Source: Escherichia phage RB16. Taken from it: DNA of 64,000 bases. Location of the stretch: the sequence record NC_014467.1; one strand, 5' to 3'. Under the pieces are notes generated by a model. It worked only from the letters and a program-made list of their open reading frames with translations, made no database searches and had not been told where the DNA came from. This document shows positions 2,621 through 60,614 of this stretch, piece after piece (within the stretch, counting starts at the first letter, position 1; every line of letters starts with the position of its first letter). A program made the translations under genes and the position numbers.

Positions 2621-3077
2621 AACCGCCACCGCACTTAACCTCACCTTCAATGAACAGTTCGCGGTTGTCTCTCAAAAGATTGTATTTCTTTTCGAGTTCC
2701 GGCCCGAATGCGTCAGCGTCTTCATAATAGCTATAATTATAACAACCGCATTCATCATCCCATTCAGGTTCATCACCGCGTTCGTTGAAGTGTACGACTT
2801 TGAGATCGTCAACTCCAGACTCTTTCATTTTATCCCAGATATACCGGATGTCAACGCTATGGTAACTGAATGCTTCAAGGGTGATGTTATCACCATCGAT
2901 TTGAGGGATACCCCATTTAGGACGTTGGTCATCGGTGATGATATCAAGCAAAGATTCTACGTTTTCGTGTCCGTAAATCTTCGCGACCTCTTCCTCTTTA
3001 CCAGGACGAACAAGCCCGATCCCGATAATAAAGCTACTGCTTGAACTGTTACTTACAAAACCAGAACGGATCTTCAT
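2610..3077 (-). CDS. hypothetical protein, paralog family A (shared N-terminus MKIRSGFVSNSSSSSFI)
   Basis: first 17 aa identical to ORF 6488-7000, nucleotide differences synonymous; Cys motif ECGCYNYSYY. Confidence 0.55.
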   Translation of the reverse strand: MKIRSGFVSNSSSSSFIIGIGLVRPGKEEEVAKIYGHENVESLLDIITDDQRPKWGIPQIDGDNITLEAFSYHSVDIRYIWDKMKESGVDDLKVVHFNERGDEPEWDDECGCYNYSYYEDADAFGPELEKKYNLLRDNRELFIEGEVKCGGGYDG

Positions 3078-3265
3078 CGTCTTGCCTCATATTTCGCGTT
3101 CTCAGCGATTTTTTCTTGATAGATGTTATATGACATTACCAGAGGCGCAACCGCCACGATAAGCCCTATAAAGCACACAGAGAACTCACGTTTATTGAAA
3201 GCCAGGAACGCAATTGCGCTCCCGACCACGAACACACCCAGCGCTAATAAGAAGAATAACGTCAT
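3074..3265 (-). CDS. small membrane protein (63 aa, two hydrophobic segments)
   Basis: MTLFFLLALGVFVVGSAIAFLAF...GLIVAVAPLVM hydrophobic stretches. Confidence 0.45.
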   Translation of the reverse strand: MTLFFLLALGVFVVGSAIAFLAFNKREFSVCFIGLIVAVAPLVMSYNIYQEKIAENAKYEARR

Positions 3266-3879
3266 TTTGTGAGGGTGTCCATTTGTTTTGATTTTTCCAA
3301 CAGGGTTTTGATTACCGTATCCATCGCCTGTTCTGTATCACCATCATGATAGATGATCGCGGTTTGATGCAAACCTTTCACCAGACGATTGATAATGTAC
3401 GCCATTTCGGTCGGTAACAGTTTACCCGTTTTGTTGAATTTTTCAAACAGATTGAACAGTTCTTCGTTATTCCCTTTCTTACGGAAATTGAAGTTGTGCA
3501 TCCCAGACAGAAGACTATCCAGATACAGAACTGTTTTGTTATCAGAGCGGAGGTGTCCACCGATTTTGTAGTAGTTGCTGAAAACGTATGGTGCTTCACG
3601 AACATCATCGATGTCGAAACCAGCATCATCGATATTGCCTACGTGGGAGAAGAAATCCGCATCGTTATCGAACAGATTGATCGCGCCTTTCTTGTATGGG
3701 AATCCAGCCAGGTTAATGACTCCCTTTTCATACGCATCATCGTTATCAACGACAACGTATTCAGGAAGCATAGGGGCATATGGTTTGTTTTTGTCGTGGT
3801 TTTCGCGATACGCTAAAGGTTCAGCCAGATAGAGGATATCGCCTTGTTTGACTTCATCCCAAAAGATATTACGTGACAT
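3262..3879 (-). CDS. hypothetical protein (205 aa; start trimmed to MSRNIFWD to avoid overlap with upstream gene)
   Basis: ORF track 3262-4047 trimmed to the Met at 3879. Confidence 0.45.
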   Translation of the reverse strand: MSRNIFWDEVKQGDILYLAEPLAYRENHDKNKPYAPMLPEYVVVDNDDAYEKGVINLAGFPYKKGAINLFDNDADFFSHVGNIDDAGFDIDDVREAPYVFSNYYKIGGHLRSDNKTVLYLDSLLSGMHNFNFRKKGNNEELFNLFEKFNKTGKLLPTEMAYIINRLVKGLHQTAIIYHDGDTEQAMDTVIKTLLEKSKQMDTLTK

Positions 3880-3919
3880 ATTAAATTCCTCAACATGCCC
3901 CCTTTCGGGGGCTATATCA

Positions 3920-6139
3920 TTACAGTTTAACTTCTTTTTCTTCCAGGACGATTTCGCAATCGAATGTTGCACCTTCCCAGAACTTATGCGGGATAATGTC
4001 AGTCGCTTTAACCGATACTTTGGTTTCTTCAAAATCCATATCCGCAAACCAGGCGTGGCCTACAACGATACCGTACATTACACGGCTCAGGCGCTTGTTC
4101 AGTGCGCGTACTTCGTTGATGGTTGCCTTTGTTTCTTTATCAAGGTACTCGATTACCTTATCCTTGTCAAGCGCTGCGAGTTCAGCTTTAACAGCATCGT
4201 AAGCCCACAGGATGATCAGGTCGCCGTTGTTCAGTTTCTTCTTACCTTCGGCACGTTTCGCAACGGTTGCCGCTACAGCAGGAAGGGAGGAAACACCCTT
4301 GATTTTCAGATTCAGTTCTTTCGACATATAAACATCAGTCGAATCGGTACGGGTTACTTTCGGGGAGAATCCATAATCACGAATACCCTGTTCAGATAAC
4401 CATTCACCAGCGGCTTCACCGTATTTCTGTTTCAGACCTTCGGCATTACGTAAACCGATCGCGTCGTCACGGAAGAACTTCATCACCTTCTGGCGACCTT
4501 TCAGGATTTCCAGACGGATAGAGTCGTTTACATACTCTTTACCGGAGATCCCGCGAGTCATCGCACGGTTAACCAGAGGCAGACTTGTAAAGTCAACCAG
4601 AACCGACATACGGTCTTCACCGATTTTTGCCAGCGGCTTGATGGTCAAACCAGAAGCGCGGAGGTTTTTCAGTGTCGGAATATCAGTTTCCAGAGGCAGA
4701 ACTTTAACGTTTACGATACCGTCTTTAACGATGGTAAAGTTACGCACCTGCTTAGTTTCGATCTGTTCAGGCAGTCCCAGTTCTTTCTGTTTGCTTTCTG
4801 GGATAGTTACGTAACCTTGCAGATCCGTGTTAATGGAAATGTTAGGACGTGAACTGTTGCCGACCAGATGTTTAACCGATACTTTGGTTGTTGTCTGGGT
4901 AAATTTCGGTGTCCAGATTTCGTGCGTTACCATTTGTGCGGCTAATGCTTTGCGTTCTTCCGGTGTTTTCGCATTTGCGATCTGTTCTGACAGTTGATCC
5001 AGAGTATCATCTTCTTTCTGTACTGTCTGACGGCCTGTACGGTTGTACGCCCAGTGTTCAGAAGACAGGTCGATCACTGTGTCAGTTTCTGCCAGCAGTT
5101 CTAGAGCATCAACCAGAGTGAATGCGTTTTCGTCTGGAACCATGTTGTAATCAACACCTTCAATCAGACGTTTACCCGCATCAACTACCGCTTCCGCGAT
5201 CAGGTCTTTGGCGTTGGAATAATCCTGCTTAGTAAAGCAGTTATCGTAAGCCTTAATCAGACGAACGTCACCGACTTTTTTCAGCACTTTCCATGCCAGA
5301 TCAGGGTTCATGGTATGAAGTGCATGATACAGAACCACGTACAGAACCTGTTCACCTTCCATCGTAGCTGGATCAAATCCGTCGATATCGTTGATTGCGT
5401 TATCACCCAGCGCCCAGATGTTTTTGATATGCTCAGGAACCAGCACAACACCGTTTGCAGCGTTCAGGACATACACGCGCCCTTCGTCAATGTAGATCGC
5501 ATGGGTAGCATCACCTACTTTAACTTCAATACGCGCTGATGTTTGAGCGGTAATGATTTCAGCAAATGCTGGCTCGTATGCGTCGAAACCTTCAACGAAT
5601 TTATGCAATGCGTTGGTTGCTTCTGCCATTTTTTCCAGCAGAGGACGGTTAACATAGTAACCATATTCCAGGAACGCAATGCTGTTAAACGTCAGAGGGA
5701 GAACCGCACACGCTTTCAGGATGTCATCGGTACGCCAGCAGTTATCATAACCATCCGTCAGGAAGATCAGGCTGTTCAGGTTGCCGTTTTCGGATTGCAG
5801 GTCAGTTGCAATCTCAGCAGCCAGATTCAGAGGTTCGACGAAACCAGTACAACCAGTAGGTTTCAGATAACGGTCGATCGCGGTGCAGATATTGGTCAGA
5901 TCCGATACGTTGCTAACCTTCTCACCACGGAACACAGTACCGTAATCGCCTTTGCTGGAGAAGTACAGGATCGAAACAGTATCATCCTGTTTAACCAGGC
6001 TTGCCAGATTCGCTTTCAGGTGCTTACGAATTTTCGGCAATTCGCTGTACATTGAACCGGAAACGTCGCAAACGAAAACGTGGTTGGTCGGAGTCGGTTT
6101 AGATACTGCATTTTTGAATTCGATATTTGTAATTGACAT
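3920..6139 (-). CDS. von Willebrand factor A (vWA) domain protein, 739 aa
   Basis: N-terminal MIDAS motif VCDVSGSM (DxSxS) and downstream IFLTDGYDN; long C-terminal region of unknown fold. Confidence 0.7.
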   Translation of the reverse strand: MSITNIEFKNAVSKPTPTNHVFVCDVSGSMYSELPKIRKHLKANLASLVKQDDTVSILYFSSKGDYGTVFRGEKVSNVSDLTNICTAIDRYLKPTGCTGFVEPLNLAAEIATDLQSENGNLNSLIFLTDGYDNCWRTDDILKACAVLPLTFNSIAFLEYGYYVNRPLLEKMAEATNALHKFVEGFDAYEPAFAEIITAQTSARIEVKVGDATHAIYIDEGRVYVLNAANGVVLVPEHIKNIWALGDNAINDIDGFDPATMEGEQVLYVVLYHALHTMNPDLAWKVLKKVGDVRLIKAYDNCFTKQDYSNAKDLIAEAVVDAGKRLIEGVDYNMVPDENAFTLVDALELLAETDTVIDLSSEHWAYNRTGRQTVQKEDDTLDQLSEQIANAKTPEERKALAAQMVTHEIWTPKFTQTTTKVSVKHLVGNSSRPNISINTDLQGYVTIPESKQKELGLPEQIETKQVRNFTIVKDGIVNVKVLPLETDIPTLKNLRASGLTIKPLAKIGEDRMSVLVDFTSLPLVNRAMTRGISGKEYVNDSIRLEILKGRQKVMKFFRDDAIGLRNAEGLKQKYGEAAGEWLSEQGIRDYGFSPKVTRTDSTDVYMSKELNLKIKGVSSLPAVAATVAKRAEGKKKLNNGDLIILWAYDAVKAELAALDKDKVIEYLDKETKATINEVRALNKRLSRVMYGIVVGHAWFADMDFEETKVSVKATDIIPHKFWEGATFDCEIVLEEKEVKL

Positions 6140-8758: not shown

Positions 8759-9013
8759 TCAAAAAATATGCGTAAGGTTTCCGGCGTTGTTCGGGTATTC
8801 CACGTAATCGCCACGGAATATGTTTAGATCGGAATCGAACTTAAATCCTTGACCCCTGACATCCTCATGACGGGAAATATAAGAACATCCGTACTTTTGT
8901 AGATCTTCCATGTACATTTCAGTGATGCGTTTTGCTTTGTCCATTCCCCGACCTTCAAATCGGGAACGGCGATAATGTTCCAGCAAAAACGCATATAACT
9001 TTTCGTATGTCAC
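8759..9013 (-). CDS. hypothetical protein (84 aa)
   Basis: ORF track. Confidence 0.4.
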   Translation of the reverse strand: MTYEKLYAFLLEHYRRSRFEGRGMDKAKRITEMYMEDLQKYGCSYISRHEDVRGQGFKFDSDLNIFRGDYVEYPNNAGNLTHIF

Positions 9014-9918
9014 AGAACTTTCCTTATCTGTTTGGCTATTGCCTCGATAACTGGCACGGAAACGGAGTTACCCGCTTGCTTGTATGCTTGTTTTTTACTC
9101 GATGGAATAATAAACGAATCTGGGAAGCCTTGCAAGCGAAAACATTCACGCGGGGTTAATCGTCGTGGGTTCTTCCCGTCCTGCAACACCAGACATTGAA
9201 CGCCGTCCTTGTAATATTGCGCGGTGATGGTTCCTGTGTGCGTAGAATCGGCTGTGACGGCCTGATAACCAAAGCCCTTACCGTTTGCCTTATTTCGTTC
9301 CTTACGCTCTCTAAAGCCTTTCCACGCGTTATCTGATAGAGTGTACGAATCATCAGCATCTTCGAGGATATCACCTACGCGCGTAGGGGTACGCGGGGGA
9401 ACCGGAAACGAAAAGAATACATCATCCAGGAAGCAGACAATGAACACGCGTTCACGTCGCTGGGGTAGTCCGAAATCTTTTGTATTCAGTCGCTGATAGA
9501 ATACGTTGTATCCTTCGGCCTCAAGAAGCCCGTAAATCGTTTTAAACGTCTTTCCCTTGTCATGGGTTAGCAATTCAGGCACGTTCTCAAAGAACAGCAC
9601 ACGGGGCTTTTTAGCGCGTATGATGCGGAGGATTTCAAAGAACACCGTACCGCGAGCATCATCAAATCCCAGTTTCAATCCGGCTTTACTGAATGCCTGA
9701 CACGGGAACCCAGCCAACAGGATATCGTGATCGGGTACTTTGTTTTCATCAATGGCAAACAGATCACCCTGTAGGTTATCGTCGCCCCAGTTTTCAATAT
9801 AGGTTTGCTGTGCGTGTTTGTCGATCTCAGACGTTAAAAGGCATTCGACCCCGCCGAATGCATTATCAAATCCAAATCGAACTCCACCAACGCCAGCGCA
9901 GAGGTCAATTATTTTCAT
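9010..9918 (-). CDS. DNA (cytosine-5)-methyltransferase, Dcm-like
   Basis: C5-MTase motifs in order: LCAGVGG (I), FPCQAFS (IV, catalytic Cys), ENV (VI), QRRERVF (VIII), GNSV (X). Confidence 0.85.
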   Translation of the reverse strand: MKIIDLCAGVGGVRFGFDNAFGGVECLLTSEIDKHAQQTYIENWGDDNLQGDLFAIDENKVPDHDILLAGFPCQAFSKAGLKLGFDDARGTVFFEILRIIRAKKPRVLFFENVPELLTHDKGKTFKTIYGLLEAEGYNVFYQRLNTKDFGLPQRRERVFIVCFLDDVFFSFPVPPRTPTRVGDILEDADDSYTLSDNAWKGFRERKERNKANGKGFGYQAVTADSTHTGTITAQYYKDGVQCLVLQDGKNPRRLTPRECFRLQGFPDSFIIPSSKKQAYKQAGNSVSVPVIEAIAKQIRKVL

Positions 9919-10178
9919 GCGTCGAAATCTATCTCGTCAATTTTGTAAGACTGTTCATCGATATCAGCCCACAGGGTGACTTTAACCGTTTTGCGGTCTT
10001 CGTACATGTCACGACCATCATAGCCGCCTACGTATTCGCTGTGCGTCTGTTCATCCACTTCCAAACGCAGACTATCGCGCATGATTTGGACAACAGCCTG
10101 TTCCATCGTAACAGAATCTGGGTGTTGTTCTGTGCCACCAACTCGAACATCTTTCAGGTGTAAAATAATATCAGACAT
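9915..10178 (-). CDS. hypothetical protein (87 aa)
   Basis: ORF track. Confidence 0.4.
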   Translation of the reverse strand: MSDIILHLKDVRVGGTEQHPDSVTMEQAVVQIMRDSLRLEVDEQTHSEYVGGYDGRDMYEDRKTVKVTLWADIDEQSYKIDEIDFDA

Positions 10179-10447
10179 CAGTTGCTACCCCACGTATAAA
10201 AATCAAATTTTTCGGTTTGCGCTTCTTCAACACGGATCACGTAATCACTGGTATCGTATTTGTCAGCGGTACGGAATTCAACCGAATACACACGAGCAAA
10301 CACAGCATAAAGCGCTTCGCGGATTTTCTCTGCGATCTCTTCATCGGTCTTATCGATATGCAACGTAAGCATATCGGAAACCACATCTTCAACGCGACGA
10401 ACATCACGCTTATCAATGTAACCAGTGTATAAATTTACTTCTTTCAT
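10178..10447 (-). CDS. hypothetical protein (89 aa)
   Basis: ORF track. Confidence 0.4.
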   Translation of the reverse strand: MKEVNLYTGYIDKRDVRRVEDVVSDMLTLHIDKTDEEIAEKIREALYAVFARVYSVEFRTADKYDTSDYVIRVEEAQTEKFDFYTWGSN

Positions 10448-11430
10448 TTGTAATACCTCATAACATGATCTTTGTACACGAGTTCAATGAAGTTATCCCA
10501 GAACTCGCGATCGACTTCTTTCGGATAGGTAGAGATTGCAGCCAGGCGTTCAACTTCACCCATCACTTCCTCCAGTTTTTCCTGTACTTCGGCAAACGGG
10601 ACATTACCAGCTTTAACCGATTTCAACAGGTCACTCTCAGGAAGAGGATAAACGATATCACCGTGCTTGTAAATCTGTACCAACTGCATACCGCCGCGCA
10701 ATGCGTGACTTAATGCTTTCCAATCGATCCCATTGTTGGCTTCTGCTTGTCGTGCGCGTTCGCCATATTCATCCCAGAGCTTATACACGGATTTCTTCAT
10801 TTCCGCTACGGTGATTGTGAACTGGAATTTACGACCCAGAACTTCGTAGAAATTCTGCATACCACCTTTTTCGCTATAATGCAAAATAGAACGACAGAAT
10901 TCATTGGTCGGTAGTTGGTCTTTGATGTCGCCAACTTTGGTATTAACCAACGATGAAGCGTTTTCATCGTAATGTGCATTATCGGTGTCTTGCAACACGT
11001 CATACACTTCACGCAATGCAGCCAGGCGTGAACCCTTAACGCCATATTTCGCGGCTTGCTTACGAACATAACCGAACAGACCAGTTAACTCCGTGGTGTA
11101 GAAACGCCAGCGGTTAGCGCGGATATACTGCCAGATTTCAGAGTTAGCGATCAGCTTGCTATCATCAGCATGAAGCATATCGAGCGCTACGGTATCACCA
11201 TCACACGCAAGGCTGATGAACTTAGGCAGACTATACAACTGACGGTCTACGTCATCAACGGTGTTTTTAGAGTTCTTATCGCCCGTGCTCGTGTCGATGG
11301 TCTTTGGGGCTTTACCCAGTAAGATATCGCGTGGATGCGGGAGAAAGATCCCTTTATAATCTTTGTCGCTTGTCGGGGTGTTCAGTCCGTACAAAAAACT
11401 TCCAAACACCATTTCAACTACGGTTTTCAT
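10444..11430 (-). CDS. nucleotidyltransferase-fold (Pol-beta superfamily) protein, about 328 aa
   Basis: N-terminal VEMVFGSFLYGLNTPTSDKDYKGIF fits hG[GS]x9-13DhD NTase signature; start placed at MKTVVEMVFGSF. Confidence 0.5.
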   Translation of the reverse strand: MKTVVEMVFGSFLYGLNTPTSDKDYKGIFLPHPRDILLGKAPKTIDTSTGDKNSKNTVDDVDRQLYSLPKFISLACDGDTVALDMLHADDSKLIANSEIWQYIRANRWRFYTTELTGLFGYVRKQAAKYGVKGSRLAALREVYDVLQDTDNAHYDENASSLVNTKVGDIKDQLPTNEFCRSILHYSEKGGMQNFYEVLGRKFQFTITVAEMKKSVYKLWDEYGERARQAEANNGIDWKALSHALRGGMQLVQIYKHGDIVYPLPESDLLKSVKAGNVPFAEVQEKLEEVMGEVERLAAISTYPKEVDREFWDNFIELVYKDHVMRYYK

Positions 11431-11947
11431 AAAATTCTCCAAATAATTCTTTCGCTTTCGCTTCGTATACTACACTAGCTTCTTCTGGCGTGGCAAACCT
11501 ACCCAAAAACATATCTTTGCGGTTATGTTTGATTTTAGCTATCCATTTATCACGAGCATTGTCGAAATAGACCCCCTTATAGCCAGATTTATTGGTTTTC
11601 GGAGTTTTTGCTTTCATCGTGTTCTGCTGTTGCGTTACTTCCTGTAGGTTATCTTTGCCATTACCGTTCCCGACCCCGCGTTTATGGTCAACGATAGCGG
11701 GAAGATACCCGTTAGCAACATAGAAAACAATTCGATGAACATAGTACGACTTGCCGTTATATCCTATTGCAGTGTATCCAAATGAATTCGTACTACCCGC
11801 AATACTTCCTACTGTAGCCCTACTACCCCTGTGAACTTTCCAATAACACAACCCTGTGTCAACATCAACCCGAAGAATTTCTAACAATGAATCTATTTCG
11901 CTGCGTTCATCTTCTAGCGTTCTTTTCCACCGTCCGTGGCATTTCAT
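11414..11947 (-). CDS. HNH homing endonuclease with AP2-type DNA-binding domain
   Basis: YVHRIVFYVANGYLP...VDHKRG...DNLQ (HNH_3-like) followed by SGYKGVYF...KWIAKI...LGRF...EEA (AP2-like). Confidence 0.7.
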   Translation of the reverse strand: MKCHGRWKRTLEDERSEIDSLLEILRVDVDTGLCYWKVHRGSRATVGSIAGSTNSFGYTAIGYNGKSYYVHRIVFYVANGYLPAIVDHKRGVGNGNGKDNLQEVTQQQNTMKAKTPKTNKSGYKGVYFDNARDKWIAKIKHNRKDMFLGRFATPEEASVVYEAKAKELFGEFYENRS

Positions 11948-18230: not shown

Positions 18231-18557
18231 TTAGTATAATCCTATTCCGGCGTTATATTCATCCACCAGATAGGTACGCAGTTTTTCGCAGCGTTCCTTA
18301 TTCGGTGCGCGGGTACAGAGTTTCATCATTGGTTCAGACTGCAAAAACTCACGCTGTTTAACCAGCTTCTGACGCTTATACAGGTGCGCATTTTCTTCGC
18401 CCCACACATAAGCCGCGTCGAGTTGTTCCGCGATCACCTGGTAACATACCGCAGTATCTTTAATGTCTCGATGGTCGCAGAGTTCAGACAGACGGTTGTC
18501 ATCAACAGCGAACACGGAACCAGAAACCAAAGTCAGCAACAGCGCAAGTTTTTTCAT
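18231..18557 (-). CDS. secreted small protein with 4 Cys (signal peptide MKKLALLLTLVSGSVFA)
   Basis: predicted signal peptide; periplasmic, possible superinfection-exclusion-type protein. Confidence 0.45.
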   Translation of the reverse strand: MKKLALLLTLVSGSVFAVDDNRLSELCDHRDIKDTAVCYQVIAEQLDAAYVWGEENAHLYKRQKLVKQREFLQSEPMMKLCTRAPNKERCEKLRTYLVDEYNAGIGLY

Positions 18558-18559
18558 TA

Positions 18560-18961
18560 TTACTCTCCCAGTACGTAAACAAAGCGGTCTTCGATTGAAT
18601 CGTTAACACATTCGTAAATTCCCCCAGCGCGTACAGCTTTACGAATGCCGGATTTTACGATTTCCATGATCTCTTTGTTGCTTCCCCATACATTCAAATT
18701 GAAGTATAGCGCACATTCGATTGGATAGTCTTCTACGTTGCGATACACATCATCACTTTCACATACAAACAGTATGCGCTTTTCTTCTCCATATTCGAAG
18801 TAAATGCTAAACGCGTTCATACTGTTTTTATCAACAGTGATTTGAGTGATTTTAACGTTCGGTTTGCTTTTGAGTTCAGCAAGAACACTCTGAATAATAG
18901 ATAACGCATTCAGTTTAATAAGTCCGCATTTTCCTACAATAACACGATGTGATGTACTCAT
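18560..18961 (-). CDS. hypothetical protein (133 aa)
   Basis: ORF track; preceded by promoter cassette. Confidence 0.45.
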   Translation of the reverse strand: MSTSHRVIVGKCGLIKLNALSIIQSVLAELKSKPNVKITQITVDKNSMNAFSIYFEYGEEKRILFVCESDDVYRNVEDYPIECALYFNLNVWGSNKEIMEIVKSGIRKAVRAGGIYECVNDSIEDRFVYVLGE

Positions 18962-18989
18962 AATTCAATCCTCAATAGTTGGTACACAC

Positions 18990-19024
18990 ATAATAAAAAA
19001 GCCCCTGCAAAAATGCAAGGGCTT
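18990..19024 (-). promoter_or_regulatory. terminator-hairpin/promoter cassette (-35 TTGCAT, 17-nt spacer, -10 TATTAT)
   Basis: minus strand GCCCTTGCATTTTTGCAGGGGC TTTTTT ATTATG. Confidence 0.45.
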
Positions 19025-19028
19025 TCGA

Positions 19029-19677
19029 TTAAATAATTTGCTTTTCTTCTAACAGTTTCGCGGTATGGTTAACCATGCGAGCATAATCACGGGCTTCTTT
19101 CTTCGTATACTTGAAGCCCGCGTTATAGCTTGCCAGCGCCTTTTTCAAGTCGCCTTTGTGGTAATCAAGCCAGTATTCCAGTTCATGAATGGCAAACTTA
19201 GAACCTCCCCGAAGGGATTCGAGCTTATTGATTACTACGCGTTTGGAATATGATTTATCCATCCGTGCGGAAGCACTGTTTACAGTGACTTGCCAACAGC
19301 CATAAGCATGATGACCTTTTTTGCCCTTTCCGGTGTTCTCACATGCGCGAGATTCGATCCAGGCGATAGCCGCTAAATGATATCCCAAACGTTTCGATTT
19401 TTCTTTTTTCAGCAGGTTTTGCAGTCGTTAGATCATAGTCGTTGCCAACTCTGAAAGCATACTCCAAAACCTTTTTCTGCTTTGGTGTAATTTCGTCCAA
19501 TTCCTTGACATATGCAGGGGCATTGGCTGGTGCTTTCTTGATCACTGTTGCCTGTTGAAGCGGAAGTGTTGACTGAACAGCAGGAAGTTTTTCGATGAAT
19601 TCTCCTAGCGGATCTGTCTTTGCGTGACCAGAAAAAGAGCATAAGAAAATGAAAGGTAGTATCCATTTGAATCTCAT
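19029..19677 (-). CDS. soluble lytic transglycosylase (SLT domain) split over two overlapping frames; frameshift or pseudogene
   Basis: ORF 19339-19677 gives signal peptide MRFKWILPFIFLCSFSGHA; ORF 19029-19388 gives catalytic LAAIAWIESR...AYNAG; overlap contains an A6/T6 run at 19404-19409. Confidence 0.5.
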
Positions 19678-20234
19678 GGGCTTTCCTTATTATAAAAAGT
19701 TCCAAAATTTAACAACGCTGATTTTTTATAAGCGTTGCTTGCTTCTTCAGGATCATCAAAAGATCCCAAGTAGGTTGCTTTACCATTAATGGTTATTTGA
19801 GCAATCCACTTTTCATTTATAGTATTCCAAGTAACACCGATAAAACCAGAAGTATTAGTTTTCATCATACTTTTCTTTTGCTGATTTTGAGTATTAGTCA
19901 CTTCTTGCAAGTTGTCAATACCATCACCAAAAGAAACACCTTTCTTATGATCAATCATAACAGGAAGAGTACCTGTAGATACATAATACACGATGCGGTG
20001 TCTTCTAAACTGCTTTCCTTTGAAGTTTATAACGGTATATCCATCTTTCCGCAAGGTTCCTGCAAAAGAACCAACTTTAATTTTTCGGTTAGTTGATTTT
20101 ATCCATACACACGTACCGGAAACAACGTCAACGCTGATATATTCAAGTAATTCATCAATCAGTTGTTTTTCTTCTGATAGTGTACGCTCTCCCCATCCAT
20201 AAGATTTAGTCATGTTTAATACCTTTTGTAACAA
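19674..20234 (-). CDS. HNH homing endonuclease with AP2-type domain (paralog of 11414-11947)
   Basis: FRRHRIVYYVSTGTLP...IDHKKG...DNLQ and SGFIGVTW...KWIAQI...LGSF...EEA. Confidence 0.7.
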   Translation of the reverse strand: MLQKVLNMTKSYGWGERTLSEEKQLIDELLEYISVDVVSGTCVWIKSTNRKIKVGSFAGTLRKDGYTVINFKGKQFRRHRIVYYVSTGTLPVMIDHKKGVSFGDGIDNLQEVTNTQNQQKKSMMKTNTSGFIGVTWNTINEKWIAQITINGKATYLGSFDDPEEASNAYKKSALLNFGTFYNKESP

Positions 20235-37849: not shown

Positions 37850-38702
37850 AATATCGGTTCCAAACTTTTTTCGCGCTGTATGGTTTTCCTTTCGACTGGA
37901 AAGCCTGTGTAGGCAACCAAACTGCTTTCGCCCAGTCTTTTGGGGCTATCTCTGCAAGAGGTGATCGCAGGTGCGCAGGTAAGTATGCTTTGATCATTTG
38001 ATCTGCACCGCGCATCCCTTTCACGTTGTTCCAGTTGATTTTCAATCTGGTTTTGTTTGAAAGGCGATCTGTTGATCCGTATCCACGTTTCAAAAGTTCT
38101 TCTAAAAACTCTTGACGGGCTTTAGGTGGCGCATAGTGCAAGTTCAAACCGTACAGAACTAAATTACCCGCTTTAGAACGTCCTGAACCCAGGAAGATGA
38201 TTAGCGGGAACCGATCCCAGTATGGTAGGGTATCTTTGTATTTCGCGTCATACACGAACGTATACAATCGCCCTGTTGCTGGTTTCGCTACCCTGTGCGT
38301 TTTGATGCTGGTTTTGATGAAGTCACCAAACCAATCGGTTGAATCCTTTTGACGTTTCGCAGCAGAAACACCCACTGTAATTTTCCGTAAACTATTTCGG
38401 AAGTCGTTGATGATGTCAACTGTATGTTTTTTGCGATAGTCATTGCGTTTTCGTCGGGCTTCGGTTTCTGCTGTACGTCGCGAGATTTCATCATCAATCT
38501 GCTGTTTATAGCGGTGCATAGACTTTGTGAACGTTGCGTATGCAATCCCGTTTTCGTCCGCGAATTTTTTGGCTGTCATGCCTTTTAATTTTGCGCGTCT
38601 GAATTTAACACCCAGTTCAACCCATTCACCAAGTTTTCGCTTCGGTGGCGGTTTCGGCTTATCTTCTTCTGCGATGATCTCAAACTCAAATATAAAACTC
38701 AT
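37848..38702 (-). CDS. 2: DNA end protector protein gp2
   Basis: 284 aa basic protein in T4 gene 2 position between 3 and 4. Confidence 0.7.
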   Translation of the reverse strand: MSFIFEFEIIAEEDKPKPPPKRKLGEWVELGVKFRRAKLKGMTAKKFADENGIAYATFTKSMHRYKQQIDDEISRRTAETEARRKRNDYRKKHTVDIINDFRNSLRKITVGVSAAKRQKDSTDWFGDFIKTSIKTHRVAKPATGRLYTFVYDAKYKDTLPYWDRFPLIIFLGSGRSKAGNLVLYGLNLHYAPPKARQEFLEELLKRGYGSTDRLSNKTRLKINWNNVKGMRGADQMIKAYLPAHLRSPLAEIAPKDWAKAVWLPTQAFQSKGKPYSAKKVWNRY

Positions 38703-39388
38703 AATTCCCTCCGTTTACACTTATCACCATGCCAACGTTTAAACATACCCGGCCTGAAACTATTACCGCAGTATTGGCATTCCATTTTCTCTATATTTGA
38801 AACTGCTTCCCTTATGCGTATCTTTTGTTCTTCTGTTCGGGGTTTCCCCTTTCTAGCATCTGCTGATTTTTTTACTGCATCAGGGGGCATAGTTTTTCCT
38901 GAACATGAGATAGAAATTTTTTGTTTATGTTCTTCTGATAGAGATCTCCCTACCTTAGCGTTTCTCATCTTTTCTATAGACTGTTCGTTGAATAGCCCTG
39001 GTCGAGTTTTACCTTTCAATGGATTGACCCACCCATCTTTCATTTTGCGAGATTTACCTATTTTTGCTTTACTCATTTTCTCTCGCGTTTCGCTGGATGC
39101 TGTTGTGTATGATACCCCACCCTCCCCACCAATTTTTAAATTGTATGTGTGTTCCGATAGCACGAACTCGCGATTGACAAGTTCCTTTTCTTTATCATAC
39201 ATTTCAGAAGGGGTGTCAAACACATACAATATACTTTTTGTGAAGTTGTGTATGCCATATTTGGTTTGTGCTTTCAATAAAAGTTTACCAGACCCCATAT
39301 ACGAATCATTCACATCTGTGGTTGCATGTGCGCCGATATAAATTTTATCGTTGATATTGTTTTTAATCTGATAGACTAAATATTTCAT
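38699..39388 (-). CDS. GIY-YIG homing endonuclease (Seg-like)
   Basis: MKYLVYQIKNNINDKIYIGAH (GIY...YIG), conserved R/E/N downstream, NUMOD3-like EKMSKAKIGK / EKMRNAKVGR repeats; inserted between genes 2 and 4. Confidence 0.75.
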   Translation of the reverse strand: MKYLVYQIKNNINDKIYIGAHATTDVNDSYMGSGKLLLKAQTKYGIHNFTKSILYVFDTPSEMYDKEKELVNREFVLSEHTYNLKIGGEGGVSYTTASSETREKMSKAKIGKSRKMKDGWVNPLKGKTRPGLFNEQSIEKMRNAKVGRSLSEEHKQKISISCSGKTMPPDAVKKSADARKGKPRTEEQKIRIREAVSNIEKMECQYCGNSFRPGMFKRWHGDKCKRREL

Positions 39389-39858
39389 TTCTCGTACCCT
39401 TTCCATCCAAAAACACGTTTGAGGGTGTCTTCGGTTATGATCTTGAACTCCCATCCTTTTGCTTTACATGCAGCATTGGCGGCTTTCCATTTGTCTATAT
39501 TTATGGAGTAAACATAGAGAGCATCAACAAATTTCTTTTTGTTGTGAACGTTGTTGTTCGCTGGCTTAGGTGGGGGCAATGTTTCTTTCATCGGTTTGAC
39601 TTCCCATAGGTAGGTCACACCGTTATCCATCTCAACATAAAAATCCATGAAGTAACGCCGTCTTTTACCGTCTGCGTTGCTGAAATAAGGTATCACAACC
39701 TCTTCACTGTTCCAGCGTTTCACATGCGGATTCCTGTCAAGCCAGTTCATTATATATTTTTCCCAGCTTGACCGATACGTTATCTTTCGAGGATCGCCTT
39801 TATATTTTGTTATGTTCTGGGGCATAAAAGACCCCTTGTACGTCTGTCTTCCAGCCAT
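39385..39858 (-). CDS. 4: head completion protein gp4
   Basis: 157 aa, T4 gene 4 position. Confidence 0.7.
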   Translation of the reverse strand: MAGRQTYKGSFMPQNITKYKGDPRKITYRSSWEKYIMNWLDRNPHVKRWNSEEVVIPYFSNADGKRRRYFMDFYVEMDNGVTYLWEVKPMKETLPPPKPANNNVHNKKKFVDALYVYSINIDKWKAANAACKAKGWEFKIITEDTLKRVFGWKGYEK

Positions 39859-44318: not shown

Positions 44319-44996
44319 ATGAATTACGATAGGATATATAAAGCTCTTATAGATAAGCGGAGGAAAACTCCGCTTAAAGACGGATATAAGGAACATCATC
44401 ACATCATTCCTAAATCTATGGGCGGTAGTGATGATTTTGATAATATGGTGTATTTGACAGCGAGAGAACATTTCGTTGCGCATCTTTTACTCGCTCGTAT
44501 ACATGGTGGTAAGATGTGGTTTGCTGTTGCTATGATGTGTGGGCGTGGATCAAGTAGCGCGAAAGGCGTTGTCCCTACTTCTCGAATATATGAGTTAGCC
44601 AAAAAACGGGTAGCCAATGAAAGAAGTATATTGTTTTCTGGGAAATTACATCCATTATACGGAAAGCCTTGTACAGAACAACGAAGAAAACGCATAGCTG
44701 AAGGACGTAAAGGGAAAACGCATACTCAGGAAACGAAACAGAAAATGTCTGAATCGAAGAAAGGATATAAACATACTCAGGAGACGAAACAGAAAATGTC
44801 TGAGTCACGGAAGAGACAAACACCTCCTACTCTGGGTAAAAAGTTACCTTCTCCATCAATCGAAAAAAGAAAGAAACTTAGTGAGGCTATTAAAAATCAG
44901 CCAATCATCAAATGTCCATATTGCGGGTTAGAAAGTAACAGCAAAGGAAATATGGTGAGGTTTCATTTCGACAACTGCAAATATAGGAAACCATGA
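44319..44996 (+). CDS. HNH homing endonuclease (Mob-like)
   Basis: HNH core EHHHIIPKSMGGSDDFDNMVYLTAREHFVAH; internal duplicated HTQETKQKMSES motif. Confidence 0.8.
   Translation: MNYDRIYKALIDKRRKTPLKDGYKEHHHIIPKSMGGSDDFDNMVYLTAREHFVAHLLLARIHGGKMWFAVAMMCGRGSSSAKGVVPTSRIYELAKKRVANERSILFSGKLHPLYGKPCTEQRRKRIAEGRKGKTHTQETKQKMSESKKGYKHTQETKQKMSESRKRQTPPTLGKKLPSPSIEKRKKLSEAIKNQPIIKCPYCGLESNSKGNMVRFHFDNCKYRKP
44721..44807 (+). repeat. 35-nt near-perfect tandem duplication inside HNH gene
   Basis: CATACTCAGGA(A/G)ACGAAACAGAAAATGTCTGA(A/G)TC at 44721-44755 and 44773-44807. Confidence 0.8.
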
Positions 44997-59835: not shown

Positions 59836-59842
59836 GTTAAAT

Positions 59843-59880
59843 GGGTATAGGCGGAAGTCTATACCCTCTTCAAAGAGGGG
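59843..59880 (+). promoter_or_regulatory. two alternative hairpins, the second sequestering the SD of the downstream T5orf172-like gene
   Basis: GGGTATAG-GCGGAAGT-CTATACCC (59843-59866) and CCCTCTT-CAA-AGAGGG (59864-59880); SD AGAGGGG lies in the 3' arm. Confidence 0.5.
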
Positions 59881-59888
59881 TTTATGAT

Positions 59889-60614
59889 ATGGTTGCAAAA
59901 ATCTCTATAGAACAACGAGAACATCAATTAAAAGAACGTTGTGCGGAATTAGAACTATCTTTTGATGGATGGGTAGACCAATCAGCGATCACAAAATATT
60001 CAAAGTTTTATGTTGTTTGCAGTAAAGGACATAGAACAGAAAAACAGATCAAACCATTTGTCAACAAAAGTCGTCCAAACGGATGTTATTTGTGTTCTCC
60101 TAAGATGAAAATATCAAAGGAAAACAGAATCGAGGAAATCAAAACTCTTGCAGATTCAATTGGATATACATTCATAGATTTCGTTGGGGTGTATAAAGAT
60201 GCTCACACAAAAATATCAATGGTTTGCGATAAAGGCCATAATTGGGATGTAAGTATAGTTGCTTTTCTCAATCAAGGTCATCGCTGTAAAAAATGCGCAA
60301 CGTCTGGGTTCAATACGAACAAACCAGCATACGTATACGTACAATCACTATCTGGAAAATTTCTGAAATTTGGGATAACCAACAGAACACCAAAGAAAAG
60401 AATGTGTGCGCAATCAAATAAATCCGTTTATAAACACGAACTGGTTTATCAAAAATTATTCGATAAAGGTATTGATGCAATGAGTATTGAACAGAAGATC
60501 AAACAATCTCTTGTTTGTGGCGTAGTTGATAAATCAGATATGATGGATGGATATACAGAAACAACAGATATATCCAATTACGATAAACTGTTGAATATTA
60601 TAGAAGGAGTATAA
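59889..60614 (+). CDS. T5orf172/GIY-YIG-like domain protein with duplicated zinc-finger modules (free-standing homing-endonuclease-like)
   Basis: two CxKGH...CxxC modules then YVYVQSLSGKFLKFGITNRTPKKR (T5orf172-type GxxKxGxT...R); inserted between genes 14 and 15. Confidence 0.5.
   Translation: MVAKISIEQREHQLKERCAELELSFDGWVDQSAITKYSKFYVVCSKGHRTEKQIKPFVNKSRPNGCYLCSPKMKISKENRIEEIKTLADSIGYTFIDFVGVYKDAHTKISMVCDKGHNWDVSIVAFLNQGHRCKKCATSGFNTNKPAYVYVQSLSGKFLKFGITNRTPKKRMCAQSNKSVYKHELVYQKLFDKGIDAMSIEQKIKQSLVCGVVDKSDMMDGYTETTDISNYDKLLNIIEGV

What the first reader, a model, noticed from the sequence alone, without database searches (positions are those of the whole stretch)
9010..9918. Dcm-type C5-cytosine methyltransferase in a T4-like genome
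All core C5-MTase motifs are present. T4 itself uses hydroxymethylcytosine plus glucosylation and a Dam adenine MTase. A C5-MTase suggests this phage carries unmodified or 5mC cytosine and uses methylation for restriction evasion. The target recognition domain between motifs VIII and X is short, and specificity is unknown.
Basis: partly seen in the sequence, partly recalled or inferred. Interest (0 to 1): 0.45.

Follow-up and report, generated by a model that had tools for sequence, protein, structure and literature searches.

The report
Orphan cytosine methylase in RB43-like phage
The gene is a real, intact DNA cytosine-C5 methyltransferase in an RB43-type T4 relative that has ordinary cytosine; it was already described in 2006 and is annotated in about 170 phage genomes, so the finding is correct but ordinary, and what I add is a predicted CCNGG/CCWGG target and an unexplained purge of CCSGG sites.

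Summary
**Observation: confirmed.** Window 9010-9918 (- strand) encodes a 302-aa protein.
- It matches PF00145 end to end (E=1e-93).
- All C5-MTase motifs are present.
- An AlphaFold model superposes on M.HhaI (TM 0.83).

**Genome.** The window is collinear with RB43 65.8-129.3 kb (Pseudotevenvirus). RB43 lacks gp42, alpha-gt and beta-gt by tblastn but has Dam and gp56.

**Prior knowledge.** The orthologue RB43ORF127c was called a C5 methylase in 2006. Homologues of at least 79% identity occur in about 173 phage records.

**Family.** It is not a Dcm orthologue. Its target-recognition domain (TRD) aligns almost without gaps to the CCNGG enzymes:
- M.Ecl18kI/SsoII: 54% identity
- an HTH-MTase sitting in an EcoRII-C REase/Vsr operon: 66%
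- Dcm: 30%
- HhaI: 22%

No nuclease, Vsr or controller gene is nearby, so it is solitary.

**New here.** CCSGG is the most depleted pentamer in this lineage, at 0.08-0.10 of a codon-shuffle expectation. CCWGG and GATC are not depleted. MTase-less T7-like phages of the same hosts show the reverse pattern.

**Best reading (about 0.55).** An NlaX-like CCNGG methylase, with CCSGG purged because C-5mC-G-G is a non-Dcm mark that McrA-type enzymes attack.

**Rival (0.25).** The enzyme is CCWGG-only.

Novelty: already known. Interest: low.

The parts
9010..9918 (-). Solitary DNA (cytosine-5) methyltransferase gene, 302 aa, orthologue of RB43ORF127c and GuL6_128
   Evidence: ORF. PF00145 E=1e-93. TIGR00675 323 bits. 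95.7% aa identity to RB43 and GuL6. dN/dS 0.05-0.11. Fold TM 0.83 to M.HhaI.
9883..9906 (-). Motif I (AdoMet binding) DLCAGVGG. Cys replaces the usual Phe of FxGxG throughout the phage clade.
9688..9711 (-). Motif IV GFPCQAFS with catalytic Cys73 (nt 9700-9702)
   Evidence: Invariant in 33 homologues.
9580..9588 (-). Motif VI ENV
   Evidence: E111, N112 and V113 are invariant.
9442..9462 (-). Motif VIII QRRERVF
9157..9402 (-). Target-recognition domain (residues 173-254) of SsoII/NlaX type. The phage clade has its own residues in both predicted recognition loops (GFGYQAV; TITAQYYKDGVQCLV).
   Evidence: TRD identity: 53.7% to M.Ecl18kI (1 gap column), 65.9% to P0117, 30.5% to Dcm (23 gap columns), 22% to M.HhaI (19 gap columns). 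Loop mapping comes from the HhaI alignment.
9049..9165 (-). Motif IX (RRLTPRE, nt 9145-9165) to motif X (GNSVSVPV, nt 9049-9072)
9915..10178 (-). Upstream 87-aa ORF (phrog_7342, unknown function). Its TGA stop overlaps the MTase ATG (ATGA), so the two are in the same leftward gene array.
8759..9013 (-). Downstream 84-aa ORF (phrog_11469, unknown function). Its GTG start overlaps the MTase stop (GTGA). It matched no nuclease family.

Best explanation
The gene encodes a solitary (orphan) S-adenosylmethionine-dependent DNA cytosine-C5 methyltransferase of the SsoII/Ecl18kI/NlaX subfamily. Like NlaX, it has no N-terminal regulatory HTH domain.

**Proposed mechanism**
- It is co-transcribed in a leftward array of small overlapping genes in a phage that carries ordinary cytosine.
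- It methylates the inner cytosine of CCNGG on replicating phage DNA. That set includes the host Dcm site CCWGG.
- Progeny DNA is then refractory to CCWGG- and CCNGG-reading restriction enzymes (EcoRII, SsoII/Ecl18kI/Kpn2kI, PcaI types), whether or not the previous host had Dcm.
- Methylated CCSGG would carry C-5mC-G-G, a mark that is foreign in Dcm+ enterobacteria and is recognised by McrA-type methylation-dependent nucleases. The lineage has therefore purged CCSGG about tenfold, and its methylome mimics host Dcm methylation.

**Shown here:** family, fold, intact motifs, purifying selection, solitary context, SsoII/NlaX-type TRD, absence of hmC genes in RB43, and the CCSGG purge and its specificity to the MTase-bearing lineage.

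**Inferred:** enzymatic activity, the CCNGG target, the anti-restriction role, and the reason for the purge.
For: **Family, fold and integrity:**. Purifying selection: dN/dS 0.05-0.11.

**Subfamily**
- 54-56% full-length identity to M.Ecl18kI (pECL18) and M.Kpn2kI (pKPN2).
- About 60% identity to 307-310-aa proteins that sources name nlaX.
- 61% identity (TRD 66%) to P0117. That HTH-MTase lies between a divergent PF09019 EcoRII-C nuclease, itself 53% identical to R.Ecl18kI, and Vsr.
- The TRD is nearly gap-free against the CCNGG enzymes, but has 23 gap columns against Dcm and 19 against HhaI.
- PMC3978073: NlaX is 67% identical to the SsoII MTase domain and has the same specificity. SsoII is 41% identical to HhaI.

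**Solitary:** no Pfam or PHROG nuclease, Vsr or controller among the neighbours, and no tblastn hit to R.Ecl18kI or Vsr in the window or in RB43.

**Ordinary cytosine:**; PMC8056088; PMC2993671.

**Site statistics**
- CCCGG/CCGGG is the most depleted of about 512 pentamers in both the window and RB43.
- Against a synonymous-codon shuffle:

| Site | Window (observed/shuffle mean) | RB43 (observed/shuffle mean) |
|---|---|---|
| CCSGG | 0.08 (4 sites vs 49.7 expected, z=-7.6) | 0.10 (14 vs 136.9, z=-11.3) |
| CCWGG | 1.13 | 1.18 |
| GATC | 1.12 | 1.15 |

- The pattern recurs in all 7 clade loci.
- MTase-less T7-like phages of Klebsiella and E. coli do the opposite: CCWGG 0.02-0.11, CCSGG about 1.5. 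T1-likes purge neither. Unmethylated CCSGG is therefore not under general restriction pressure in these hosts, and the purge tracks the MTase.

**McrA:** PMC6182155 reports that EcoKMcrA spares Dcm-type C5mCWGG, restricts C5mCGG (Y5mCGR), and also binds hemimethylated sites.
Against: - There are no methylation data for this phage or any relative. KP15/KP27 DNA is EcoRII-resistant, but so is DNA of an MTase-less phage grown on the same Dcm+ host (PMC3620542).
- The phage clade differs from both CCNGG and CCWGG enzymes at TRD positions those two groups share (GFGYG->GFGYQ, SARYYKDGxEILI->TAQYYKDGVQCLV). By alignment to M.HhaI these lie in the two recognition loops, so specificity may have shifted.
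- Motif I has Cys where Phe normally stacks on AdoMet.
- A purge of CCSGG is also what one expects if the enzyme does not protect S-centred sites. PMC8989522 shows that Dcm-methylated DNA is restricted by a CCNGG system through unmethylated CCSGG.
- How widely McrA-like enzymes occur in Klebsiella, Enterobacter and Cronobacter was not examined.
- The T7-like controls differ from RB43-likes in much more than the MTase.
- Promoter-like sites near the gene are no more frequent than in shuffles (18 vs 14.6 +/- 4.1), so timing of expression is unknown.
Confidence: 0.55

Rival explanations
1. The enzyme is a functional Dcm mimic that methylates only CCWGG. W-centred sites are then protected from both EcoRII-type and SsoII-type enzymes. 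S-centred sites cannot be protected and were purged by CCNGG- or CCSGG-reading restriction enzymes.
For: - CCWGG is retained (1.13-1.18) while CCSGG is purged (0.08-0.10).
- PMC8989522 shows Dcm-methylated plasmids still being restricted by the CCNGG system PcaI through unmethylated CCSGG.
- SsoII-family R-M plasmids are common in Shigella, E. coli, Klebsiella, Enterobacter and Salmonella.
- The phage clade has its own substitutions in both predicted recognition loops.
Against: - The TRD is collinear with, and 54-66% identical to, CCNGG enzymes. It lacks the roughly 20-residue insertion of Dcm.
- MTase-less T7-like phages of Klebsiella and E. coli keep CCSGG at about 1.5 of expectation while purging CCWGG to 0.02-0.05. 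T1-likes also keep CCSGG. Restriction pressure on unmethylated CCSGG therefore looks weak in this host range.
Confidence: 0.25
2. The methylase has a different target, or its main role is not anti-restriction. Possible roles include marking phage DNA as self against the phage's own DenA-type nuclease or other host-DNA-degrading functions, or regulating phage gene expression or packaging.
For: - PMC8056088 raises the possibility that the methylase shields these dC-containing genomes from their own DenA and gp56 homologues. RB43 does carry denA and gene 56.
- The recognition loops diverge from characterised enzymes.
Against: - No evidence links DenA specificity to CC(N)GG.
- The TRD is clearly of the CC-GG-reading class.
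- Retention of CCWGG and GATC in a genome that avoids many other restriction sites fits protective methylation by this enzyme and by Dam.
Confidence: 0.12
3. The gene is the modification half of a phage-borne type II restriction-modification system.
For: Its closest characterised relatives (SsoII, Ecl18kI, Kpn2kI, P0117) are R-M methylases.
Against: - No nuclease-family match among the flanking ORFs.
- No homologue of R.Ecl18kI or Vsr in the window or in the whole RB43 genome.
- The extra ORF next to the gene in RB43 and GuL6 is a tail-needle-knob-domain protein, not a nuclease.
- No N-terminal HTH controller domain.
Confidence: 0.02

Closest known systems
RB43ORF127c and its orthologues in Pseudotevenvirus and Slopekvirus phages (GuL6_128, GAP161, KP15/KP27 'Dcm')
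   Same: 94-97% aa identity in Pseudotevenvirus and 84-86% in KP15-like phages. Same length and same position in the leftward early-type gene array next to the nrdC.11-like nucleotidyltransferase. Reported as a C5 methylase in PMC1524935 (2006) and as 'Dcm' in PMC3620542 and PMC5219037.
   Different: Nothing functional. The window lacks the 755-bp insert (RB43ORF128w/GuL6_129) that separates the MTase from the next ORF in RB43 and GuL6.
M.NlaX (Neisseria lactamica) and NlaX-like 307-310-aa methylases
   Same: Single-domain enzyme of the same size, without an N-terminal HTH. About 60% identity overall and 56-58% in the TRD, with one gap column. NlaX methylates the same site as M.SsoII (PMC3978073).
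   Different: The phage clade has its own substitutions at otherwise conserved TRD positions and in motifs I and X. The bacterial examples examined sit next to a GmrSD-type gene, not in a phage.
M.SsoII / M.Ecl18kI / M.Kpn2kI (CCNGG, plasmid-borne type II R-M of enterobacteria)
   Same: 54-56% identity across the whole MTase domain, collinear TRD. Found in the same bacterial genera these phages infect.
   Different: Those enzymes carry a 71-residue N-terminal HTH autoregulatory domain and are paired with a divergent EcoRII-C-family nuclease. The phage enzyme has neither.
E. coli Dcm / M.EcoRII (CCWGG)
   Same: Same superfamily. Related TRD signature (GxGFGY...YYKDG). The inner cytosine of a CC-GG site is methylated.
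   Different: 43.5% identity overall and 30.5% in the TRD, with 23 gap columns. Dcm has an N-terminal extension of about 85 residues, two internal insertions and a linked vsr. NF007772 scores 200.8 against a cutoff of 710.
M.HhaI (GCGC)
   Same: Best solved structural relative: E=1e-63 by sequence, TM 0.83 by fold. Similar size.
   Different: TRD only 22% identical with 19 gap columns. HhaI's base-contacting Gln237 and Arg240 are not conserved in the alignment. GCGC is not the expected target.
T4 Dam and the T-even hmC/glucosylation system
   Same: Phage-encoded DNA modification used against restriction. RB43-type phages also carry a Dam orthologue (53% identity to T4 Dam).
   Different: Different chemistry (post-replicative C5 methylation at specific sites rather than whole-genome base replacement). 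gp42, alpha-gt and beta-gt are absent from RB43.

Membership tests
DNA (cytosine-5) methyltransferases (Pfam PF00145 / TIGR00675) | Full-length match to the family profile above the curated threshold | tested here: met
   PF00145: 314.7 bits against a cutoff of 22, residues 1-299. TIGR00675: 323.5 against 100.65.
DNA (cytosine-5) methyltransferases (Pfam PF00145 / TIGR00675) | Catalytic Pro-Cys (motif IV), ENV (motif VI), QxRxR (motif VIII), GNSV (motif X) | tested here: met
   GFPCQAFS 70-77, ENV 111-113, QRRERVF 153-159, GNSVSVPV 283-290. All are invariant across 33 homologues.
DNA (cytosine-5) methyltransferases (Pfam PF00145 / TIGR00675) | Motif I FxGxG AdoMet-binding loop | tested here: met
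   DLCAGVGG. The glycines are conserved, but Cys replaces Phe in the whole phage clade. The effect on cofactor binding is unknown.
DNA (cytosine-5) methyltransferases (Pfam PF00145 / TIGR00675) | Two-domain fold: Rossmann-like catalytic domain plus small TRD domain | tested here: met
   AF2 model with pLDDT 87.4. TM 0.83 to M.HhaI ternary complexes and 0.80-0.82 to Shigella Dcm.
DNA (cytosine-5) methyltransferases (Pfam PF00145 / TIGR00675) | AdoMet-dependent transfer of methyl to C5 of cytosine in DNA | not testable with these tools
   Needs biochemistry or methylome sequencing.
SsoII/Ecl18kI/NlaX subfamily (CCNGG) | TRD collinear with, and similar to, characterised CCNGG enzymes | tested here: met
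   TRD identity 53.7% to M.Ecl18kI, 56-58% to NlaX-like proteins and 65.9% to P0117, each with one gap column.
SsoII/Ecl18kI/NlaX subfamily (CCNGG) | Methylation of the inner C of CCNGG | not testable with these tools
   Predicted from homology. Site statistics are ambiguous.
SsoII/Ecl18kI/NlaX subfamily (CCNGG) | N-terminal HTH autoregulatory domain (SsoII/Ecl18kI branch only) | tested here: not met
   The protein starts 4 residues before motif I. There is no HTH. This places it with the NlaX-like single-domain branch.
Type II restriction-modification system | Cognate restriction endonuclease encoded nearby | tested here: not met
   No nuclease family among the flanking ORFs. No R.Ecl18kI-like hit in the window or in RB43.
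E. coli Dcm orthologues (NF007772) | Score above the subfamily cutoff, N-terminal extension, linked vsr | tested here: not met
   200.8 bits against a cutoff of 710. No N-terminal extension and no Dcm-type insertions. No Vsr homologue.
T-even hydroxymethylcytosine modification pathway | dCMP hydroxymethylase gp42 plus glucosyltransferases | tested here: not met
   In RB43, gp42 hits only td (24.5% identity, E=2e-7), and b-gt, a-gt and imm have no hits. The window has no hits, but it does not span the syntenic slot, so absence in this exact genome is inferred.

The most novel reading that the evidence does not exclude
**'Methylate and purge' Dcm mimicry.** RB43-type phages combine a CCNGG methylase with a roughly tenfold purge of CCSGG from their genomes. 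The only 5mC marks left on virion DNA are then the host-like C-5mC-W-G-G.

This would protect the phage from CCWGG- and CCNGG-reading type II enzymes while presenting no foreign 5mC context to methylation-dependent (McrA-like) nucleases. It would be a case of genome composition co-evolving with the specificity of a phage's own methylase.

A more exotic variant that the evidence does not exclude: CCSGG is avoided because a phage-encoded nuclease that degrades host DNA reads it.
Probability: 0.35. Interest if true: 0.5.

Novelty: already known. Interest (0 to 1): 0.22.

Why it matters
The gene itself adds nothing new. It is a well-annotated orphan cytosine methylase of RB43-, GAP161- and KP15-type phages.

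It does bear on a question Petrov et al. (PMC2993671) left open: how T4 relatives with apparently unmodified DNA escape host restriction. The data here suggest a layered answer:
- Dam plus a CC(N/W)GG C5-methylase cover GATC and CCWGG.
- Site avoidance covers many other enterobacterial restriction sites.
- CCSGG is handled in a way that depends on what the methylase really does.

These phages are candidates for therapy against Klebsiella, Enterobacter and Cronobacter. Knowing which restriction and type IV systems they are blind to or vulnerable to has practical value for predicting host range. One methylome experiment on a dcm- host would settle the specificity.

Tried and rejected
1. **GCGC (HhaI-like) specificity.** Rejected. 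HhaI is the best PDB hit overall, but the TRD is only 22% identical with 19 gap columns, and Gln237/Arg240 are not conserved.
2. **R-M system or hidden nuclease.** Rejected. The flanking ORFs and the RB43/GuL6-specific neighbour ORF128w were scanned. ORF128w is a Sf6-type tail-needle-knob domain protein.
3. **Codon usage as the cause of CCSGG depletion.** Rejected by the synonymous-codon shuffle.
4. **Mutational decay of methylated CCSGG by 5mC deamination without Vsr rescue.** Not supported. The expected products are not in excess: CTCGG 0.43-0.47, CTGGG about 1.05.
5. **General enterophage avoidance of CCSGG.** Rejected by the T7, T1, T4, T7-like and T1-like controls.
6. **Promoter and terminator scan around the gene.** No more hits than in shuffles, so uninformative.
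7. **Literature searches for methylome or discriminating restriction data on RB43-, Slopekvirus- or Karamvirus-type phages.** Only EcoRII resistance of KP15/KP27 was found, and that is confounded by host Dcm. The Kpp95 paper (PMC1855606) is not held.
8. **Direct check of gp42 and the glucosyltransferases in the window.** No hits, but uninformative, because the window covers only the region matching RB43 65.8-129.3 kb.
Full report
**1. Observation**

[quoted passage not shown] E=1.1e-93, residues 1-299 on profile positions 1-323 of 324.
- It matches NCBIfam TIGR00675 at 323.5 bits against a cutoff of 100.65.

All canonical motifs are present:

| Motif | Sequence | Residues |
|---|---|---|
| I | DLCAGVGG | 5-12 |
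| IV | GFPCQAFS (Cys73) | 70-77 |
| VI | ENV | 111-113 |
| VIII | QRRERVF | 153-159 |
| IX | RRLTPRE | 252-258 |
| X | GNSVSVPV | 283-290 |

The catalytic residues are invariant in a 33-sequence alignment. An AlphaFold2 model (pLDDT 87.4, pTM 0.89) superposes on M.HhaI ternary complexes at TM 0.83 and on Shigella Dcm at 0.80-0.82. dN/dS against seven relatives is 0.05-0.11.

**2. The genome**

- The 3.5 kb around the gene is 94% identical to Buttiauxella phage vB_ButM_GuL6 and 92.5% identical to Escherichia phage RB43, both Straboviridae, genus Pseudotevenvirus.
- The whole window is collinear with RB43 65,836-129,259, with 58.3 of 64 kb aligned. That stretch runs from the baseplate gene 25 region, through a long leftward array of small early-type ORFs, to genes 13-18.
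- The MTase sits in that array with 4-nt start/stop overlaps on both sides: ATGA upstream and GTGA downstream.
- A consensus promoter scan was no better than shuffles, so timing of expression is not established.

**3. Is it already known?**

Yes.
[quoted passage not shown] 2006 (PMC1524935). RefSeq notes its similarity to NlaX and ScrFIA.
- KP15 and KP27 were reported to carry 'Dcm and Dam' (PMC3620542, PMC5219037).
- A 2021 survey noted that the RB43 and RB49 groups lack non-canonical-base genes and carry C5 methylases (PMC8056088).
- A tblastn search finds homologues of at least 79% identity in about 173 phage records from Klebsiella, Enterobacter, Cronobacter, Citrobacter, Escherichia, Buttiauxella and Yersinia phages. 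Nearly all are annotated as cytosine or 'orphan' methyltransferase.

**4.

I assembled the full RB43 record and searched it with T4 proteins.

| T4 query | Result in RB43 |
|---|---|
| gp42 | only the paralogous thymidylate synthase (24.5% identity, E=2e-7) |
| beta-gt, alpha-gt, imm | no hit |
| Dam | 53% identity |
| gp56 | 48% identity |
| gp43, UvsX (controls) | 54-57% identity |

- At the syntenic positions, uvsX abuts gene 43, and gene 55/a-gt.5/a-gt.4 abut gene 47, with no glucosyltransferase between them.
- No alc or denB is annotated. denA and cd are present.
- The window has no hits to any of these queries. It does not include the relevant part of the genome, so absence in this exact phage is an inference from its close relatives.
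- Independent support comes from the window itself. Its most depleted hexamers are classic enterobacterial restriction sites: CTGAAG, TCCGGA, GGATCC, CGTACG, CTGCAG, GGTACC, CCGCGG. That is expected of DNA that restriction enzymes can read.
- Petrov et al. (PMC2993671) say such genomes 'probably lack major modifications' and are cut by type II enzymes. They leave open how these phages avoid restriction.

**5. Which kind of C5-methylase?**

It is not a Dcm orthologue. The E. coli Dcm model NF007772 scores 200.8 against a cutoff of 710.

Its nearest non-phage relatives are:
- 307-310-aa proteins at about 60% identity, some named nlaX by their source.
- The plasmid R-M methylases of pECL18 (M.Ecl18kI) and pKPN2 (M.Kpn2kI) at 54-56% over the full length.
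- P0117 (61% identity), which has the SsoII architecture: an N-terminal HTH, a divergent PF09019 EcoRII-C nuclease 53% identical to R.Ecl18kI, and a downstream Vsr.

Region-by-region identity settles the class. The TRD covers residues 173-254.

| Reference | TRD identity | Gap columns |
|---|---|---|
| M.Ecl18kI | 53.7% | 1 |
| P0117 | 65.9% | 1 |
| Dcm | 30.5% | 23 |
| M.HhaI | 22% | 19 |

- PMC3978073 states that NlaX is 67% identical to the SsoII MTase domain and has the same specificity, and that SsoII is 41% identical to HhaI.
- The phage enzyme has no HTH domain, so it is NlaX-like.
- The TRD is not unusually short. It has the length typical of this subfamily.

The homology-based prediction is therefore methylation of the inner C of CCNGG.

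Two caveats apply.
- The phage clade invariably differs from both CCNGG and CCWGG enzymes at positions those two groups share: GFGYG to GFGYQ, and SARYYKDG(S/A)EILI to TAQYYKDGVQCLV. By alignment to M.HhaI these fall in the two DNA-recognition loops.
- Motif I has Cys in place of the AdoMet-stacking Phe.

**6. Context**

The enzyme is solitary.
- The flanking ORFs match only PHROGs of unknown function.
- The next larger gene (10444-11442) is the nrdC.11-like nucleotidyltransferase.
- Neither the window nor RB43 has a homologue of R.Ecl18kI or Vsr.
- RB43 and GuL6 carry a 755-bp insert beside the MTase that the window lacks. Its ORF is a Sf6-type tail-needle-knob domain protein, not a nuclease.

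**7. An unexpected genome-wide signal that bears on specificity**

- With a maximal-order Markov expectation, CCCGG/CCGGG is the most depleted of about 512 pentamers in both the window (4 observed, 37.8 expected) and RB43 (14 observed, 116 expected). CCWGG is at 0.77-0.81.
- A synonymous-codon shuffle, which preserves proteins and codon usage, sharpens the picture:

| Site | Window (observed/shuffle mean) | RB43 (observed/shuffle mean) |
|---|---|---|
| CCSGG | 0.08 (z=-7.6) | 0.10 (z=-11.3) |
| CCWGG | 1.13 | 1.18 |
| GATC | 1.12 | 1.15 |
| GCGC | 1.19 | 1.09 |

- The apparent CCGG deficit is fully explained by the missing CCSGG sites.
- All seven loci of the MTase-bearing clade in IMG/VR repeat the pattern: CCSGG 0.00-0.41, CCWGG 0.63-0.81.
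- Retention of GATC and CCWGG in a genome that avoids so many other sites fits protection by Dam and by this methylase.

**8. Why purge CCSGG?**

I considered three explanations.

*(a) The enzyme protects only CCWGG, and restriction enzymes remove the unprotected S-centred sites.* There is a direct precedent: the Pectobacterium CCNGG system PcaI restricts Dcm-methylated plasmids through their CCSGG sites (PMC8989522).

*(b) The enzyme methylates all CCNGG, and methylated CCSGG is itself a liability.* EcoKMcrA spares Dcm-type C5mCWGG but restricts C5mCGG (Y5mCGR), and it also binds hemimethylated sites (PMC6182155). Every methylated CCSGG site carries C-5mC-G-G on one strand.

*(c) Mutational decay of 5mC at sites that Vsr does not repair.* This is not supported. 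The expected products are not in excess: CTCGG 0.43-0.47, CTGGG about 1.05.

To separate (a) from (b), I used phages of the same hosts that have no C5-methylase:

| Group | CCWGG O/E | CCSGG O/E |
|---|---|---|
| T7 | 0.03 | 0.58 |
| 42 Klebsiella T7-like loci (781 kb) | 0.02 | 1.49 |
| 15 loci of the RNAP 62-71% group (one checked matches E. coli K1 phage vB_EcoP_F) | 0.05 | 1.48 |
| T1-like loci | 0.8-0.9 | 1.0-1.5 |

Unmethylated CCSGG is therefore not under noticeable restriction pressure in this host range. The purge is specific to the lineage that carries the methylase. This favours (b), which also agrees with the homology-based CCNGG prediction.

The argument is indirect, because T7-likes differ from RB43-likes in many other ways. 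I therefore put (b) at about 0.55 and (a) at about 0.25.

**9. Experimental evidence in the literature**

It is thin. KP15 and KP27 DNA resists EcoRII. So does DNA of an MTase-less siphovirus grown on the same Dcm+ Klebsiella (PMC3620542), so this does not show that the phage enzyme is active. I found no methylome data for any member of the clade.

From my own knowledge and not checked here: RB43 was isolated on E. coli B (PMC2993671 names strain B/5), and B strains are dcm-. That would give a phage-borne CC(N/W)GG methylase an obvious use.

**10. Verdict**

- The feature is a long-known, widely annotated orphan methylase.
- The label 'Dcm-type' should be replaced by 'SsoII/NlaX-type'.
- Specificity is predicted to be CCNGG, or at least CCWGG.
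- The modestly new elements are the lineage-specific CCSGG purge and its mirror-image relation to T7-like phages. Both can be tested with one methylome experiment on a dcm- host.

Noticed in passing
whole window (residual sites at 14136, 29309, 38748, 48898); also RB43 and loci L018-L024: CCSGG (CCCGG/CCGGG) is the most depleted pentamer. It stands at 0.08-0.10 of a codon-shuffle expectation, while CCWGG and GATC are not depleted. MTase-less T7-like phages of Klebsiella and E. coli show the mirror image: CCWGG 0.02-0.05, CCSGG about 1.5. One of the four residual sites (38748) lies inside a GIY-YIG homing-endonuclease insertion that RB43 lacks.
   Followed up: yes
whole window and RB43: Strong avoidance of many enterobacterial restriction sites. 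Examples: CTGAAG (2 observed, 41 expected), TCCGGA (0 vs 22.5), GGATCC, CGTACG, CTGCAG, GGTACC, CCGCGG, ATGCAT, GGWCC (0.08-0.23) and AGCT (0.44-0.48). GGSCC and GCGC are not avoided.
   Followed up: partly
whole window and RB43: CCAAG/CTTGG (O/E 0.34-0.45), CCAA, CAAG and CTAG are depleted, and CCWGG is slightly enriched against the codon shuffle. As I recall, this resembles the oligonucleotide signature attributed to Vsr very-short-patch repair in E. coli. The phage has no vsr of its own.
   Followed up: no
window 9914-9918 junction; RB43 75,264-76,018 (L002:7688-8389 +); GuL6_129: RB43 and GuL6 carry a 755-bp insert beside the MTase that the window lacks. It holds an opposite-strand 233-aa ORF with a Sf6-type tail-needle-knob domain (PF16532, E=9e-35). 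That is an odd domain to find in the early-gene region of a myovirus.
   Followed up: partly
window 11414-11947 (-), 19674-20234 (-), 38699-39454 (-), 44319-44996 (+): Segments with no RB43 counterpart are free-standing homing-endonuclease-like ORFs: two HNH_3+AP2, one GIY-YIG+NUMOD3 (SegE-like) and one HNH+NUMOD3. RB43-type genomes are known to be rich in HNH-AP2 genes (PMC2993671).
   Followed up: partly
window 59841-60614 (+): Between genes 14 and 15, where RB43 has the mobE homing endonuclease, the window has a non-homologous 257-aa ORF with a CapR homology domain (PF21817, E=6.5e-18).
   Followed up: no
window 9883-9906 and 9049-9075 (- strand); phage-clade proteins P0001-P0022: In all 23 phage-clade sequences aligned, motif I reads DLCAGVGG (Cys instead of the AdoMet-stacking Phe) and the residue immediately before motif X is Ala rather than Phe (AGNSV, where the non-phage relatives have FGNSV). 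Every non-phage relative examined has Phe at both positions.
   Followed up: partly
window 10444-11442 (-): The nrdC.11-like 332-aa nucleotidyltransferase (phrog_388; Pfam RlaP, RNA-repair-pathway Pol-beta family, E=2.8e-11) lies two small ORFs upstream of the MTase in the same gene array.
   Followed up: no
RB43 18,258-18,992 (L011, - strand) and 153,259-154,110: Outside the window's region, RB43 carries two more methyltransferase genes: a Dam orthologue (53% identical to T4 Dam) and ORF030c, which has only a weak 'MTS' small-methyltransferase-domain match (E=5e-5). The substrate of ORF030c is unknown.
   Followed up: partly
L005-L007 (human-microbiome contigs), 2990-5933: The NlaX-like orphan C5-methylase P0046 (60% identical to the phage enzyme) lies 17 bp downstream of a GmrSD-family (type IV, modification-dependent) nuclease gene, an unexpected pairing.
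   Followed up: no
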